A stretch of 64,000 bases of DNA from an uncultured Clostridia bacterium. GTDB lineage: Bacteria; Bacillota; Clostridia; TANB77; CAG-508. Where the stretch lies: NCBI GenBank assembly GCA_934133165.1, contig CAKPAW010000001.1, positions 98,756-162,755 on the forward strand, read 5' to 3'. Positions 25,380 to 35,479 of the stretch are shown here, one piece after another; position 1 is the first letter of the stretch; every line of letters starts with the position of its first letter. Under the pieces are notes generated by a model that was given only the letters and a program-made list of their open reading frames with translations, was not told the origin of the DNA and searched no databases. The translations under genes were made by a program, and so were the position numbers.

Positions 25380-26216
25380 TTAATCTTTTTTCTGTGGCAT
25401 TTCTATTGATTTAGCTATTACTGTTATTTTTTGTACATTCATGGTTGTTGATTTTTCAATTTCTTTCACGCATTTTTCTTTAAATTCTTTTAATTCTTTT
25501 ATAACACTATGACCATATATTACTGCTACTTCCATATAAATAGATGGCCCTTCTCCGTAATTTTCCACTCTGGTTCTCATTACTCTTGATATTCCTTCCG
25601 CCTTTTTAGCTAAATATTCTACTATTTGACGAAATACTGTGTCTGAAATTGTGAAATTACCTAAATAACTAAATGTAGGTCTTATTATTGATTTTTCTGA
25701 TATATATGGTTTGTTTCCGCTTCCCTTTGACTTAAATATTTGTAGTGGATCTAATATATAACCTGAAAAATCTTTTTTTATCTCAAATGTAGGAACAGGT
25801 ATTACATGTTTTCCTTGTGTTACCCTTATATTTCTAGCTGTTTTCATTTCTGTTTCTGTTGCTACATCTTGAATATAAATTGTTTTTTGTATTTTAGGTA
25901 GGCCTAAGTTTTCTGCAATTTTTTCTACCATTCCATCTGATGTTCCTAAAATTAAAATTGATTCTGGTTTTAATCTTTTTATAGCTTTTTGCATTTCTTT
26001 TCTTTCTTTTTCATCTATAAAAATAGCATGTTTTACAGTTTCAATTTTTGTTGGTGCTTTTTTGGCAGACTCTCCTGCTACTACCTCATTTTCATTTACT
26101 AAAAGTCCATCATCTATAATATAAGAAATATTATTTTCTCCTGCTACCATTTGTGCCCTGTAACTTTTTCCTGTTCCAGAAGGTCCAACAAATGCATATA
26201 CTCTTATATCTTTCAT
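25380..26216 (-). CDS. Uncharacterized P-loop NTPase (HprK-C-like GPSGTGKS...IIDDG) fused to an Asp23/Gls24-like C-terminal domain
   Basis: N-terminal VYAFVGPSGTGKSYRAQ...YIIDDGLLV. C-terminal ISDTVFRQIVEYLAKKAEGISRV...IYMEVAVIYGHSV resembles the Asp23 family. AAGGAG RBS. Confidence 0.5.
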   Translation of the reverse strand: MKDIRVYAFVGPSGTGKSYRAQMVAGENNISYIIDDGLLVNENEVVAGESAKKAPTKIETVKHAIFIDEKERKEMQKAIKRLKPESILILGTSDGMVEKIAENLGLPKIQKTIYIQDVATETEMKTARNIRVTQGKHVIPVPTFEIKKDFSGYILDPLQIFKSKGSGNKPYISEKSIIRPTFSYLGNFTISDTVFRQIVEYLAKKAEGISRVMRTRVENYGEGPSIYMEVAVIYGHSVIKELKEFKEKCVKEIEKSTTMNVQKITVIAKSIEMPQKKD

Positions 26217-26228
26217 ACATTTTCTCCT

Positions 26229-27743
26229 TTAATCCTTTTCTACTAGTGTAATTGTATAATGTAAATTATGGTATTTTACATTATATGATTTTGTTTCTAC
26301 TATTTGTACATTTTCTAGCTCTTGTTTTATTTCTTCTGTAAAATCTTCACTAGAATCTATTAGCCAAATTCTTCCTTTATAATCTTTAAGTTCATCTATA
26401 TTTTCATATGTTTTAAAATTATATCCAAAGGCTTTATATGCTTGTTCTACATTCCAATTATCTTTATTCCAAAAATATACTTTATTGTCTAAGAAATTGA
26501 CATCTAAAACAAAACTATCTACATTATTTTTGTGTAATATTATATCGTCTTTTTGTATATTTTCCTTTATGTATTCTATATGTTTATTATTACTTTCATC
26601 ATAATTTGTTTGTATTAATTTTACTTGTACAAATATAGATATTATTAATGATATTATACAAATAGCTATAGTTATATATTTATTTCCTTTTTCAGCCATT
26701 GTATAACTTAAGAAAAATATAAACAATCCTGTTACACATAACATATATCTTGCATATATTATTGGTCTCCATATTATTAATGAAACTAAGCATATAGCAA
26801 GTACAAGTATTCCCCATATTAATATTGCAAGTTTTTCTGGTTTTTCTTCTTTACTTTTATTTTTTATATTAGCATATACCATATATGCACATATTAATAT
26901 TCCAAATATTCCTGCAATTACAGGATTTACATATGCATCTCCACCTAAATTCCCTGTAAATTGAAAATTAAAAAATTCTATTAATGAATCTGGAAATTTA
27001 ATTGATATCCAAAAGCCTGATGATACTTGTTTTACTTGTAATAGTAAAGAAACTATCCAAGGTATATATAATATAATTTGTGGTATTGCAATTGCAAAAA
27101 ACATTTTTAAATTGTCTGTAAATTTTTTCTCTTTAATTGCTTCTTTTGTAAAAAATACAAATAACATTAAATTAACAATTCCTGCCGTTGCCAAAGCATA
27201 ATAATGTGTATATGCTGATGCCAAGCTAAATATTGCAAATAAAATCCAATTTTTAATTTGTTTTTTATCTCTATTTTTATAAGTTCTATATGCATATATA
27301 CACATTAGCGTAACTAACAACATAGCTAATGTATACATTCTAATTTCGCCTGTATACACCATATTTACAGGTAAGAAATATATTAAAAATGAAAAAATTA
27401 ATCCTACATTTTTTCCAAAATCTTTTCTAATATGTGTAAATCCAAGTATTCCTAAAATTGATATGCAAACTAATGAAAATAGCCTGTAGCAAATTATTTT
27501 ATTTCCAAATATTAAATTAATAATATGTAATATCCAATAATATAAAATAGGATGTACATCATTTCCACCAATTGTCCAAATTTCTGTAAAAGTATGATTT
27601 GCTAAACCTACAGAATAGCTTTCGTCAAACCATAAATTTTCATGAAATATTGGTACTGCTACAAATATAATTCCTAATATTATAACTATTATATGTAATA
27701 TATCTTTCTTATCTAATTTCATATTATTTTTTATTCCTTTCAT
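26229..27743 (-). CDS. GT-C fold membrane glycosyltransferase (GT39/PMT-ArnT-like)
   Basis: Eleven or more TM helices and an N-terminal DE-containing loop (LWFDESYS) typical of PMT/ArnT-type lipid-linked sugar transferases. The start is ambiguous between 27743 and the ATG at 27722. Confidence 0.55.
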   Translation of the reverse strand: MKGIKNNMKLDKKDILHIIVIILGIIFVAVPIFHENLWFDESYSVGLANHTFTEIWTIGGNDVHPILYYWILHIINLIFGNKIICYRLFSLVCISILGILGFTHIRKDFGKNVGLIFSFLIYFLPVNMVYTGEIRMYTLAMLLVTLMCIYAYRTYKNRDKKQIKNWILFAIFSLASAYTHYYALATAGIVNLMLFVFFTKEAIKEKKFTDNLKMFFAIAIPQIILYIPWIVSLLLQVKQVSSGFWISIKFPDSLIEFFNFQFTGNLGGDAYVNPVIAGIFGILICAYMVYANIKNKSKEEKPEKLAILIWGILVLAICLVSLIIWRPIIYARYMLCVTGLFIFFLSYTMAEKGNKYITIAICIISLIISIFVQVKLIQTNYDESNNKHIEYIKENIQKDDIILHKNNVDSFVLDVNFLDNKVYFWNKDNWNVEQAYKAFGYNFKTYENIDELKDYKGRIWLIDSSEDFTEEIKQELENVQIVETKSYNVKYHNLHYTITLVEKD

Positions 27744-27901: not shown

Positions 27902-27930
27902 TTGTTTTATTTTTATATTAATGTTATAAT
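27902..27930 (+). promoter_or_regulatory. Candidate sigma-A promoter for the vbhA-like/fic pair
   Basis: TTGTTT, 17 nt, TGtTATAAT (extended -10), about 30 nt upstream of the ATG at 27964. Confidence 0.45.
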
Positions 27931-27963
27931 ATATTTATAGATTTAAAAGAAAGAGGAAATTTT

Positions 27964-28170
27964 ATGGATTTATCAATAAAAAATACAACTAGAGAACAAA
28001 GAAAAGAAATTGTAAAAACAGCTCTTGCAATTTCTATTACAGGAACTGATTTTCCAAGTGATGAAGCTTTAAAAATAGTGAAAGAATACGTTGATGGTAA
28101 AACTGAAATTGAAGAAGTTCAAAGAAAAATTATTGAATTGTATAAAAAGGATGGTGAAAATAATGATTAA
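27964..28170 (+). CDS. VbhA/YhfG-family small antitoxin-like protein (Fic partner)
   Basis: 68 aa, helical. ALAISITGTDFPSDEALK aligns to the VbhA ALASQRLEGLEP region. Its stop overlaps the fic start, and it has an AAGAGG RBS. Confidence 0.55.
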   Translation: MDLSIKNTTREQRKEIVKTALAISITGTDFPSDEALKIVKEYVDGKTEIEEVQRKIIELYKKDGENND

Positions 28171-28852
28171 AGACCCTTATGTTCAAGAAAACGGAACTTT
28201 AAAAAATAGACTTGGTATTACTGACTATAATACTTTAAATTCAGCTGAAAAAGATATTACTTTTTCAAAATTTCTTAATATAAAAGAAACTTTCCGTACC
28301 AAGTTTGATATTTCTTACATTAAAGCTATTCATAAACATATTTTTGAAGATATTTTTGATTGGGCTGGTGAGTTTAGAGAAGTTCCTGTTTATAAACAAG
28401 AATTAGTAATTCCTGGTATTAGTCTTAATTATACAGATCCTAAAAATATTGAAAAAGAATTATCTGATTGCTTAGAAAAAATTAATAATACTAATTGGAC
28501 TGCACTTACTTTAGATCAAAAAAGTGCTACTTTTACTAAATATCTTACTGAATTTTGGGCAATTCATCCTTTTAGAGATGGTAATACTAGGACTACATTA
28601 ACATTTGCTACTCAATTTTCAAGAGAGCATGATTTTCCTTTAGATTTAGGTGTTTTGCTTGATAATTTAACAAGAAAATTTGATAGTAATGGTAAAATTA
28701 CACAATTTAGTATTAGAGATAAATTTGTATTATCAGCTATTCCTGAAGAATATTGTCCTGAACCTGAACATTTAAATTCTTTAATTCATACTGCAATGGT
28801 TTCTGGAATATCTAAAAATATAGAAAAATTACAAAATAATTTAGAAAGATAA
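28163..28852 (+). CDS. Fic/Doc-family protein (E. coli Fic-like class I AMPylase fold)
   Basis: Fic core motif HPFRDGNTRTT at the expected position and an N-terminal KDPYV segment like E. coli Fic. The ATG at 28163 overlaps the upstream stop by 8 nt. Confidence 0.8.
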   Translation: MIKDPYVQENGTLKNRLGITDYNTLNSAEKDITFSKFLNIKETFRTKFDISYIKAIHKHIFEDIFDWAGEFREVPVYKQELVIPGISLNYTDPKNIEKELSDCLEKINNTNWTALTLDQKSATFTKYLTEFWAIHPFRDGNTRTTLTFATQFSREHDFPLDLGVLLDNLTRKFDSNGKITQFSIRDKFVLSAIPEEYCPEPEHLNSLIHTAMVSGISKNIEKLQNNLER

Positions 28853-28904
28853 TTTTATTTATTGTAGGAATTTCACCTATAATTAGACTTATTAAATTAC
28901 AAAA

Positions 28905-28956
28905 ATATGGTTAGTAATTATCTAAAATATTGATAACTACTAACCATATTTATTTT
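28905..28956. terminator. Bidirectional terminator between fic and the GT2 gene
   Basis: 12-bp stem ATATGGTTAGTA/TACTAACCATAT followed by a T-run. Confidence 0.6.
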
Positions 28957-35222: not shown

Positions 35223-35298
35223 GGTCGCTTAGCTCAGCTGGGAGAGCATCTGCCTTACAAGCAGGGGGTCATAGGTTCGAGCCCTATAGCGACCACCA
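35223..35298 (+). tRNA. tRNA-Val (anticodon TAC)
   Basis: Cloverleaf with acceptor GGTCGCT/AGCGACC, anticodon loop CTTACAA, GGTTCGAGCC T-arm and encoded CCA. Confidence 0.9.
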
Positions 35299-35317
35299 TT
35301 TTTTTTATTTAAAATTT

Positions 35318-35394
35318 GGCCTGGTAGTTCAGTTGGTTAGAACGCTAGCCTGTCACGCTAGAGGTCGACGGTTCGAGCCCGTTCCAGGTCGCCA
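35318..35394 (+). tRNA. tRNA-Asp (anticodon GTC)
   Basis: Anticodon loop CTGTCAC, T-arm GGTTCGAGCCC, encoded CCA. Confidence 0.9.
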
Positions 35395-35403
35395 TTTTTT
35401 TAT

Positions 35404-35479
35404 GCTTCGATAGCTCAGTTGGTAGAGCAAGGGACTGAAAATCCCTGTGTCAGTGGTTCGATTCCACTTCGAAGCACCA
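35404..35479 (+). tRNA. tRNA-Phe (anticodon GAA)
   Basis: Anticodon loop CTGAAAA, T-arm GGTTCGATTCC, encoded CCA. Confidence 0.9.

What the first reader, a model, noticed from the sequence alone, without database searches (positions are those of the whole stretch)
27902..28956. Fic plus VbhA/YhfG-like two-gene module with atypical motifs
A 68-aa helical protein is translationally coupled to a 229-aa Fic protein, with an 8-nt overlap of stop and start. The small protein aligns to the VbhA/YhfG antitoxin family, but the inhibitory (S/T)xxxE(G/N) glutamate position reads SITGTD, so no Glu is present. The Fic motif is HPFRDGNTRTTL versus the canonical HPFx(D/E)GNGRxxR, substituting the second Gly and the final Arg. 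The pair therefore resembles a class I Fic toxin/antitoxin. Either it has altered regulation (no Glu plug) and altered nucleotide-substrate geometry, or it is a decaying module. It is flanked by two membrane glycosyltransferases and has its own promoter and bidirectional terminator, consistent with an inserted cassette.
Basis: partly seen in the sequence, partly recalled or inferred. Interest (0 to 1): 0.55.

Follow-up and report, generated by a model that had tools for sequence, protein, structure and literature searches.

The report
Variant Fic enzyme with small partner
An uncultured gut Clostridium carries a well-conserved two-gene unit: a Fic-type protein-modifying enzyme with an unusual active-site motif, and a small VbhA-like partner that lacks the usual inhibitory glutamate. 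The unit is intact and belongs to a Fic subgroup that has already been noticed but whose chemistry is unknown, so it is a good example rather than a new kind of system.

Summary
A 68-aa ORF (27964..28170) overlaps a 229-aa Fic ORF (28163..28852) by 8 nt. The Fic motif reads HPFRDGNTRTTL, and neither protein contains (S/T)xxxE(G/N).

The pair is not decaying:
- The motif is fixed in 118/120 close homologues, and GNTR with a non-Arg last position is found in 129 of 136 readable 50%-identity cluster representatives.
- Both genes are under purifying selection.
- The small gene sits directly upstream of fic in 78 of 80 genomes.

The motif class Hxxx[DE]GNTRxx[!R] was described in 2015. One member, Campylobacter fetus Fic2, is toxic in a His-dependent way, but its chemistry is unknown.

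New here:
- The inhibitory-Glu column aligns to G27.
- The family instead keeps an acidic residue at position 29 (90%), anticorrelated with acidic residues at position 27.
- Partners of other GNTR Fics keep E or D in the canonical column.

A recent insertion is not supported. Synteny holds down to 64% identity, GC is unremarkable, there are no mobility genes, and no close relatives turn up in phage collections.

Verdict: a new member of a known, biochemically unsolved kind, of moderate interest.

The parts
27902..27930 (+). Putative sigma-70-type promoter: -35-like TTGTTT (27902-27907) and an extended -10 TGTTATAAT (27922-27930)
   Evidence: Read directly from the sequence. It was not called by the consensus scan, and promoter-like hits in the region are at chance level, so it is an inference only.
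27964..28170 (+). Small ORF of 68 aa, a three-helix VbhA-fold partner (putative antitoxin/regulator), with Shine-Dalgarno AGAGGA at 27952-27957
   Evidence: Located. The family has 108 clusters. AF2 gives pLDDT 81 with helices 10-25, 33-43 and 49-65. The top PDB fold hits are all VbhA/BiaA. Pfam VbhA scores 14.5 bits for this protein, below the 25.9 cut-off, but 24 of 31 relatives match, with a best E-value of 6.6e-7. dN/dS is 0.0-0.31.
28021..28056 (+). Codons 20-31 (ALAISITGTDFP): the end of helix 1 plus a loop, equivalent to the inhibitory alpha-inh motif. G27 occupies the canonical Glu column, S24 is nearly invariant, and D29 is the conserved acidic residue.
   Evidence: hhalign, MAFFT of 213 partners, and column counts.
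28163..28852 (+). Fic-domain protein of 229 aa, class I (VbhT-like) fold, GNTR subgroup
   Evidence: Pfam PF02661 at 2.9e-15, VbhT in PDB at 2.5e-17, AF2 pLDDT 87, Foldseek match to VbhT with TMt 0.82-0.86, and dN/dS 0.19-0.37.
28565..28600 (+). Codons for the active-site motif H135-P-F-R-D-G-N-T142-R-T-T-L146
   Evidence: It is conserved in 118 of 120 close homologues and across the GNTR clade.
28903..28951 (.). Hairpin between the convergent fic (+) and GT2 (-) genes, with A-rich and T-rich flanks: a likely bidirectional intrinsic terminator
   Evidence: Inverted repeat with 20-nt arms, 95% complementary, and a 9-nt loop. The fold z-score is -6.2. The simple terminator scan did not call it because the stem is AT-rich.

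Best explanation
This is a functional, long-resident chromosomal class-I-type Fic module of the 'GNTR' subgroup, whose motif class is Hxxx[D/E]GNTRxx[not R].

Shown:
- The Fic protein has the VbhT-like fold and keeps the catalytic His, the metal-binding Asp, the Asn and the first Arg.
- It has a fixed Thr in place of the second Gly of the phosphate-binding nest, and a fixed hydrophobic residue in place of the gamma-phosphate/Glu-binding second Arg.
- It is translationally coupled to a VbhA-fold protein that is almost always encoded directly upstream.
- Both genes are under purifying selection.

Inferred:
- The small protein binds the Fic active-site face as VbhA binds VbhT, and holds the enzyme inactive or controlled.
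- In this subfamily the acidic 'plug' has moved from the canonical column (G27 here) to D29, two residues further along the loop.
- The free enzyme is growth-inhibitory, as shown for the only tested GNTR member, C. fetus Fic2.
- It modifies a conserved cellular target through its highly conserved flap.
- Its donor binding or chemistry differs from standard ATP-dependent AMPylation, by analogy with Doc, where a side chain at the same Gly position inverts ATP.
For: Architecture.

Motif fixation:
- 118 of 120 close homologues carry HPFRDGNTRxx[L/I/M].
- Among the best 150 representatives of 50%-identity clusters, 129 carry GNTR with a non-Arg last residue, 2 carry GNSR, and only 5 carry GNGR..R.
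- Residues invariant in GNTR proteins but variable in their GNGR neighbours are W132, T142, E80 and the flap residues L83/G85/S87.

Pairing and selection:
- The partner gene lies directly upstream in 78 of 80 genome loci.
- dN/dS is below 0.4 for both genes.

Acidic residue:
- The canonical Glu column is G138/S23/D7/E2, while position 29 is D123/E33.
- 163 of 173 members have an acid at one of the two positions, and the two are anticorrelated (Fisher 7.7e-7, not corrected for phylogeny).
- Partners of other GNTR Fics keep E (19) or D (17) in the canonical column.

Toxin-like behaviour:
- C. fetus Fic2 (HPFREGNTRTIA) is toxic in E. coli, its H184A mutant is not, and a protein partner neutralises it (PMC5651007).
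- GNTR or GNSR pairs sit beside par genes and a zeta toxin on Clostridium and C. difficile plasmids.
- Five independent nonsense alleles of fic occur. The small gene is intact in the four where it could be checked.

Canonical roles of the changed residues:
- The second Arg salt-bridges the gamma-phosphate at the site the inhibitory Glu otherwise occupies, and the second Gly amide binds the beta-phosphate (PMC3667792).
- A Lys at that Gly position in Doc inverts ATP and makes Doc a kinase (PMC4177925).
Against: - No experiment and no complex model exists for this pair.
- The 27/29 anticorrelation rests on few independent evolutionary events.
- Two loci (L076, L078) carry an intact GNTR fic with no partner gene. 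That is unexpected if the enzyme is a potent toxin.
- The module sits in a housekeeping neighbourhood and is vertically inherited. This is untypical of addiction modules and compatible with a regulatory role.
- This particular small protein is below Pfam's VbhA threshold, and an HMM of the family does not find VbhA in the PDB by sequence.
- A Thr side chain need not abolish the backbone-amide nest, so ordinary AMPylation is not excluded.
Confidence: 0.6

Rival explanations
1. The pair is a canonical FicT-type AMPylating toxin-antitoxin system. Despite T142 and L146, the enzyme still AMPylates GyrB/ParE from ATP, and the motif changes only tune its activity.
For: The closest solved and curated relatives are the gyrase-targeting class I toxins VbhT, EcFicT and Fic-1. 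His, Asp, Asn and the first Arg are intact. The nest is formed by backbone amides (PMC3667792), so a Thr might be tolerated.
Against: G-to-T and R-to-non-R change together without exception in 129 representatives, which points to a distinct functional state rather than drift. The second Arg is what holds the gamma-phosphate in the competent ATP conformation (PMC3667792). The GNTR clade also has its own invariant flap and W132.
Confidence: 0.17
2. The pair is a non-toxic housekeeping regulator or pseudoenzyme. Fic and the small protein form an obligate complex that reversibly modifies a cellular component, or simply binds one, and it is not an addiction or defence module.
For: Synteny is stable within a translation and nucleotide-metabolism neighbourhood down to 64% identity. 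There are no mobility genes. Intact partner-less copies exist. The small protein is very strongly conserved: the identical sequence is seen on 237 contigs. Precedents exist for FIC domains that bind rather than modify (BepC, PMC7842960) and for a FicTA complex acting as a deAMPylase (PMC13327609).
Against: All catalytic residues except the two variant ones are invariant, which argues against a pure scaffold. Recurrent nonsense alleles hit fic, and the partner gene is intact wherever it could be checked. Related pairs sit among plasmid maintenance genes. Fic2 is toxic (PMC5651007).
Confidence: 0.15
3. The pair is an anti-phage abortive-infection module, in which Fic is released from its partner on infection.
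For: There is a strong match to the PADLOC candidate family PDC-S04 (4.6e-45) and a weak match to SoFic (2.2e-6). SoFic is a validated Fic defence with a small regulatory partner (PMC12249575).
Against: PDC-S04 is an untested candidate, and one native-host test found no defence (bioRxiv 10.1101/2024.12.20.629700). The neighbourhood is housekeeping and not a defence island. This reading is compatible with the TA reading rather than exclusive of it.
Confidence: 0.06
4. The pair is a decaying remnant of a FicTA module that has lost its catalytic and inhibitory residues.
For: Both hallmark motifs deviate from the consensus. A few relatives carry premature stops in fic.
Against: The deviating residues are themselves invariant across a clade reaching down to about 30% identity. 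dN/dS is 0.0-0.37. The ORFs are intact and paired in 78 of 80 genomes. The models are confident and well folded.
Confidence: 0.02

Closest known systems
VbhT/VbhA of Bartonella schoenbuchensis (class I FicTA; PDB 3SHG, 3ZC7, 3ZCB)
   Same: It is the best sequence and fold match for both proteins. In both, a small three-helix partner is encoded upstream and overlaps the Fic gene. Both have the N-terminal 'DPY...G.L.N.L.I' region, the flap, and the HPFR[DE]GN.R core.
   Different: VbhT has GNGR..R and VbhA has S20xxxE24G25. Here the second Gly is T142, the second Arg is L146, and the Glu column is G27. This Fic has no BID or other C-terminal domain. Instead it has a family-specific C-terminal SIRDKFVL...PEPEHL segment. 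Identity is about 25%.
E. coli FicT/FicA (Fic/YhfG; PDB 5JFF, 5JFZ) and Pseudomonas Fic-1/AntF (8WT0)
   Same: They share the class I architecture and fold (NCBIfam PRK10347 at 4.3e-18). The G-x-[DE]-hydrophobic-P spacing after the inhibitory column resembles YhfG.
   Different: They have the canonical motif and the canonical Glu (E28 in YhfG). They AMPylate, or as a complex deAMPylate, GyrB (PMC13327609). None of this is shown here, and the Glu needed for it is absent.
Campylobacter fetus subsp. venerealis Fic2 (HPFREGNTRTIA), the only experimentally studied GNTR-type Fic (PMC5651007)
   Same: It has the same motif class: Thr for the second Gly and no final Arg. It is toxic, dependent on the catalytic His, and neutralised by protein partners.
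   Different: Its neutralisers are a class II Fic protein (Fic1) and an unrelated small protein (Fti3), not a VbhA-like partner. It is encoded on a pathogenicity island in a proteobacterium. Its chemistry and target are also unknown.
Motif group Hxxx[D|E]GNTRxx[!R] of Khater & Mohanty 2015 (PMC4454073)
   Same: The window's motif fits it exactly. The authors also mention a 'modified inhibitory helix' for this group.
   Different: That description was in silico only, called the group 'small', and gave no detail on the inhibitory helix. Here the clade is large. Partners fall into Glu-, Asp- and Gly-column types.
Doc/Phd (phage P1) and AnkX
   Same: These are Fic-fold enzymes that, like this one, have a side chain at or near the second-Gly position (Lys in Doc) and lack the final Arg. 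They bind the donor inverted and transfer phosphate or phosphocholine (PMC4177925).
   Different: The match to DOC_P1 is only 18.6 bits against a cut-off of 38.65, and the match to AnkX is only E 1.3e-3. Doc lacks the flap and the N-terminal region, and its antitoxin Phd is unrelated. The resemblance is a mechanistic analogy only.
PADLOC candidate PDC-S04 / SoFic
   Same: The profile match is 4.6e-45 to PDC-S04 and 2.2e-6 to SoFic.
   Different: PDC-S04 is an unvalidated candidate. SoFic is a class II protein of about 360 aa with its own inhibitory helix.

Membership tests
Fic/Fido superfamily (Pfam PF02661) | Fic-domain profile match above the curated threshold, plus the Fic fold | tested here: met
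   57.3 bits against a cut-off of 24. AF2 model pLDDT is 87, with 78 PDB Fic hits at E<=1e-3.
Canonical AMPylating Fic | Signature HxFx(D/E)GNGRxxR, including the second Gly and the second Arg | tested here: not met
   The motif is HPFRDGNTRTTL: T142 replaces the second Gly and L146 replaces the second Arg. The substitution is fixed in the family.
Class I Fic (FicTA, VbhT/VbhA type) | No inhibitory helix in the Fic chain itself; a separate small VbhA-family protein is encoded next to it | tested here: met
   No (S/T)xxxE(G/N) is present in Fic. A partner lies upstream in 78 of 80 loci. Its fold best matches BiaA/VbhA. Pfam VbhA is hit by 24 of 31 family members, although this protein scores only 14.5 bits against 25.9.
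Class I Fic (FicTA, VbhT/VbhA type) | The partner carries the inhibitory motif (S/T)xxxE(G/N) with the invariant Glu | tested here: not met
   The Glu column aligns to G27 and the Ser column to I23. No such motif is present.
GNTR Fic motif group (Khater & Mohanty 2015) | Hxxx[D/E]GNTRxx[not R] | tested here: met
   H135...D139-G-N-T142-R143-T-T-L146. The nearest 129 cluster representatives share it.
Type II toxin-antitoxin system | The toxin inhibits growth, and the cognate antitoxin neutralises it by direct binding | not testable with these tools
   Only indirect evidence is available: Fic2 toxicity (PMC5651007), nonsense alleles of fic, and a plasmid TA-like context for relatives. Against it, there are two partner-less intact copies.
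FicT toxins (gyrase/topo IV AMPylators) | AMPylation of GyrB/ParE | not testable with these tools
   There are no biochemical data. The motif deviates at residues needed for the competent ATP conformation (PMC3667792).
Doc (death-on-curing) kinases | Motif Hxxx[D/N][A/G]NKR and a Doc profile match | tested here: not met
   TIGR01550 scores 18.6 bits against a cut-off of 38.65. The residue is Thr, not Lys, and the fold is the longer VbhT type.
Mobile or inserted cassette | Atypical composition, mobility genes, variable presence at the site, or carriage by phages or plasmids | tested here: not met
   GC is 0.20-0.26, against 0.22-0.30 in the flanks. The site is syntenic down to 64% identity. No integrase or transposase is found among neighbours. 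Hits in viral, phage and plasmid collections reach at most 39% identity. The only features pointing the other way are the opposite orientation and the separate terminator.

The most novel reading that the evidence does not exclude
The GNTR Fic clade, including this protein, catalyses a reaction other than AMPylation. One possibility is Doc-like phosphoryl transfer from an inverted ATP; another is use of a different donor. The target would be a conserved component of the translation apparatus. In the window's subfamily the partner would control the enzyme through a relocated carboxylate (D29), through the invariant N-terminal S-I-K-N-T-T segment acting as a pseudosubstrate or modification site, or through both. 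That would be a regulatory logic distinct from the Glu-Arg plug of classical FicTA.
Probability: 0.2. Interest if true: 0.65.

Novelty: new member of a known kind. Interest (0 to 1): 0.35.

Why it matters
Fic enzymes are a major family of post-translational modifiers, and each departure from the canonical motif that has been studied (Doc, AnkX) turned out to be a new chemistry.

The GNTR[!R] class is large. It dominates the nearest 150 cluster representatives of a family with 3,864 detectable representatives. It has no solved structure and no known reaction or target.

This locus offers a compact, well-conserved, chromosomal two-gene example from abundant gut Clostridia. The comparative data give concrete hypotheses that can be tested by mutagenesis:
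- T142 and L146 in the enzyme;
- G27, D29 and the KNTT segment in the partner;
- the clade-specific flap and W132.

It does not open a new category by itself, because other members of the clade would serve equally well.

Tried and rejected
No complex model could be made, and both prediction jobs went to the monomers.
- Sequence search for VbhA: phmmer and a family HMM of the small protein against the PDB found nothing significant. Only fold comparison and Pfam scans of relatives established the relationship.
- Literature: the first search ('GNTR' + 'Fic') returned only GntR regulators. Searching motif strings found the two relevant papers.
- Relocated arginine: I asked whether an arginine elsewhere compensates for the lost second Arg. 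R185 is invariant in the GNTR clade but is equally conserved in GNGR relatives, so the idea was rejected.
- Promoter: the consensus promoter scan is uninformative here, with hits at chance level. The terminator scan missed the AT-rich hairpin, which was recovered by repeat finding and folding.
- Phage or plasmid carriage: there are no close relatives in these collections. IMG/VR hits reach at most 31% identity, GenBank phage hits about 34%, and plasmid hits 39%.
- Glu loss coupled to R2 loss: I considered that loss of the Glu is a necessary consequence of losing the second Arg. This was rejected because most other GNTR Fics are paired with partners that keep E or D in the canonical column.
- Rfam and tRNA scans found nothing in or next to the module.
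Full report
WHAT IS THERE

The window carries two same-strand ORFs. They are the only + strand genes in a long run of - strand genes. The first is a 68-aa ORF at 27964..28170, preceded by AGAGGA. The second is a 229-aa ORF at 28163..28852. The two overlap by 8 nt, ATGATTAA. Homologues all start M-x-KDPY, which fixes the Fic start at the ATG at 28163 rather than the upstream TTG.

The large protein is a Fic-domain protein:
- Pfam PF02661, 2.9e-15.
- Best curated match: the N-terminal Fic domain of VbhT, 1.4e-25.
- Best solved relative: VbhT, 2.5e-17.

Its signature reads H135-PFRDGNTRTT-L146. In the alignment to VbhT, T142 falls on the second Gly and L146 on the second Arg. Neither protein contains (S/T)xxxE(G/N).

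The flanking genes are a PMT_2-type and a GT2-type membrane glycosyltransferase. Downstream lies a hairpin with 20-nt arms at 28903-28951, with A- and T-rich flanks and a fold z-score of -6.2. It sits between the convergent genes. A TTGTTT / TGTTATAAT promoter can be read at 27902-27930, but promoter-like sites are at chance frequency in this AT-rich DNA.

THE SMALL PROTEIN IS A VbhA RELATIVE

By sequence the case is weak for this protein alone. It scores 14.5 bits on Pfam VbhA against a cut-off of 25.9, and PDB sequence searches find nothing.

Other evidence settles it:
- 24 of 31 family members hit Pfam VbhA, with a best E-value of 6.6e-7.
- The AlphaFold model (pLDDT 81) has three helices.
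- Its five best Foldseek matches in the PDB are all VbhA or BiaA chains.
- The Fic model (pLDDT 87) superposes best on VbhT, with TMt 0.82-0.86.

The architecture is that of a class I FicTA module.

WHERE THE INHIBITORY GLUTAMATE SHOULD BE

A gapless hhalign alignment and a MAFFT alignment of 213 distinct partner sequences plus VbhA and YhfG agree. The VbhA and YhfG sequences were checked against PDB chains. VbhA E24 / YhfG E28 corresponds to G27 of the window protein, G25 to T28, and the conserved Pro to P31.

No Glu exists between E15 and E34.

NOT DECAY

- The exact motif, or a conservative variant at the last position, occurs in 118 of 120 close homologues at 58-90% identity.
- An exhaustive search of 1.84 billion cluster representatives found 3,864 relatives.
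- Among the best 150 of these, the motif was readable in 136. Of those, 129 have GNTR with a non-Arg last residue, 2 have GNSR, and only 5 have the canonical GNGR..R, down to about 30% identity. No GNTR protein retains the final Arg.
- Compared with the GNGR neighbours, the GNTR proteins also have an invariant W132, E80 and flap residues L83, G85 and S87.
- dN/dS against relatives is 0.0-0.31 for the small gene and 0.19-0.37 for fic.
- The small gene lies immediately upstream of fic in 78 of 80 species-representative genomes. All are uncultured gut or rumen Clostridia or Bacilli/Erysipelotrichaceae.

ALREADY IN THE LITERATURE

Khater & Mohanty 2015 (PMC4454073) list Hxxx[D|E]GNTRxx[!R] as one of five Fic/Doc motif groups. 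They note the Thr and the missing Arg, and remark on unpublished simulations suggesting a 'modified inhibitory helix'.

Sprenger et al. 2017 (PMC5651007) studied C. fetus Fic2 (HPFREGNTRTIA):
- It is toxic in E. coli, and the H184A mutant is not.
- It lowers 70S and raises free ribosomal subunits.
- It is neutralised by Fic1 and by Fti3.
- Its chemistry remains unknown.

No GNTR-type structure is in the PDB. NCBI already names some partners of GNTR Fics 'antitoxin VbhA family protein'.

WHAT IS NEW HERE

First, partners fall into types. A metagenome sample of other GNTR Fics gave 38 distinct partners. In these the canonical column is E in 19, D in 17 and G in 2. Losing the second Arg therefore does not by itself make the acidic residue dispensable.

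Second, the window's family differs, and the numbers are these (173 distinct sequences):
- The canonical column (position 27) is G in 138, S in 23, D in 7 and E in 2.
- Position 29 is D in 123 and E in 33.
- Acidic at 29 only: 154. Acidic at 27 only: 7. Both: 2. Neither: 10.
- Fisher p = 7.7e-7, not corrected for shared ancestry.

I read this as a probable two-residue relocation of the carboxylate along the loop that follows helix 1. This is an inference.

Third, the family and its deeper 'type A' relatives share an N-terminal [YL]-S-I-K-x-T-T-[KR]-x-x-R segment that is absent from VbhA. The relatives include a C. difficile plasmid protein. K6, N7, T8, T9 and R13 are invariant among close relatives. 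T9-x-x-E/Q looks like a helix N-cap. A pseudosubstrate role is possible but untested.

HOW IT MOST LIKELY WORKS

In canonical Fic enzymes the four backbone amides of the G-N-G-R nest hold the alpha- and beta-phosphates. The second Arg salt-bridges the gamma-phosphate in the only catalytically competent ATP conformation. The inhibitory Glu occupies that gamma-phosphate site (PMC3667792). In Doc, a Lys at the second-Gly position forces ATP to bind inverted, which makes Doc a kinase. AnkX also binds its donor inverted (PMC4177925).

Here the catalytic His, the Asp, the Asn and the first Arg are invariant, so I expect an active enzyme. The fixed Thr and the missing Arg argue that donor binding differs from standard AMPylation. 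The clade-wide invariant flap argues for one conserved target.

I infer that the partner docks as VbhA does and blocks or controls the site through the S24...D29 loop.

Evidence for toxin-like behaviour is indirect:
- Fic2 is toxic (PMC5651007).
- Related pairs sit beside ParM and a zeta toxin, or beside ParB and a recombinase, on plasmids.
- Five independent nonsense alleles of fic exist. Four are in genome loci with the partner gene intact. The fifth is a 72-aa allele seen on 20 contigs.

Evidence against a potent toxin:
- Two intact partner-less copies exist.
- The module's genomic residence is stable and among housekeeping genes.

NOT A RECENT INSERTION

- The order bipA-rpsA-cmk-(278-aa ATPase)-[pair]-GT2-pnp-rpsO recurs in relatives at 82% and 64% Fic identity and in L001-L005 and L010. 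Only the PMT_2-type gene moves or is missing.
- GC content (0.20-0.26) matches the flanks.
- Other lineages hold the pair in other housekeeping contexts without integrases or transposases.
- IMG/VR and GenBank phages hold only distant relatives.

The opposite orientation and the separate terminator show an independent transcription unit, not mobility.

DEFENCE READING

The Fic matches the PADLOC candidate PDC-S04 at 4.6e-45. That family is unvalidated, and it was negative in the one native-host test reported.

VERDICT

The class I resemblance is right. Decay and recent insertion are wrong. The atypical motif places the protein in a published but biochemically unsolved Fic subgroup.

I file it as a new member of a known kind, with moderate interest (0.35). 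The interest is carried by the unsolved chemistry of the GNTR clade and by the apparent relocation of the partner's acidic residue.

Noticed in passing
L002 6001-6687; L036, L043, L053 (fic genes); protein P0395: Independent in-frame stop codons interrupt fic at codons 80, about 201, 69 and 89, while the upstream small gene stays intact. In addition, a 72-aa truncated allele with a stop at codon 73 is seen on 20 contigs (its small gene was not checked). This could be recurrent toxin inactivation in natural populations, or assembly error.
   Followed up: partly
L076 5995-6642 and L078 5977-6648: Two Bacillales/Erysipelotrichaceae MAGs carry an intact GNTR-type fic (HPFRDGNTRTIV) with no small ORF upstream. 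It is followed by a conserved gene of about 517 aa encoding a P-loop ATPase. These are orphan copies that sit awkwardly with a strict toxin-antitoxin reading.
   Followed up: partly
L173 2282-3391 (C. difficile plasmid LIBA6289, NZ_MF547664.1): A plasmid pair has the same partner type (MEEYLIKNTTKEQR...ALAIGSIDSREP, annotated as hypothetical) and a Fic with a GNSR variant (HAFREGNSRTIM). It lies between parB/HTH genes and an ADP-ribosyltransferase and recombinase. A third residue, Ser, is therefore tolerated at the second-Gly position.
   Followed up: no
L172 1414-3331 (Clostridium estertheticum plasmid pCF004-C): A GNTR Fic (HGFREGNTRTTA) with an NCBI-annotated 'antitoxin VbhA family protein' that has L-D-G in the inhibitory column sits directly after a zeta-toxin gene and near parM. 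It looks like a cluster of plasmid maintenance and toxin modules.
   Followed up: no
window 26229..27743 (-): The 504-aa PMT_2-type membrane glycosyltransferase is the variable element of an otherwise conserved neighbourhood. It is 59% identical in L005, where the flanking genes are 92-97% identical. It has no detectable homologue in L002 or L010. In L084 a 504-aa gene with no Pfam hit lies on the other side of fic, though homology was not checked. This may be a surface-glycan diversification hotspot.
   Followed up: partly
window 25380..26216 (-): A 278-aa protein has an N-terminal P-loop and a weak Asp23/AmaP-like C-terminal match. It carries no Pfam call in public annotations, yet it is a constant neighbour of cmk/rpsA and of the Fic pair across relatives. 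Its function is unknown.
   Followed up: no
L081 10443-12566: In one metagenome contig the pnp gene is called as two ORFs (487 aa and 212 aa). It is a single gene of 707-711 aa in the window and in L082. This is a frameshift or an assembly error.
   Followed up: no
window 35223-35479 (+) and 51332-51406 (-): A tRNA-Val(tac)/Asp(gtc)/Phe(gaa) cluster and a single tRNA-Trp(cca) are the only Rfam or ARAGORN hits in the 64-kb window. No riboswitch or other RNA family reached threshold.
   Followed up: no
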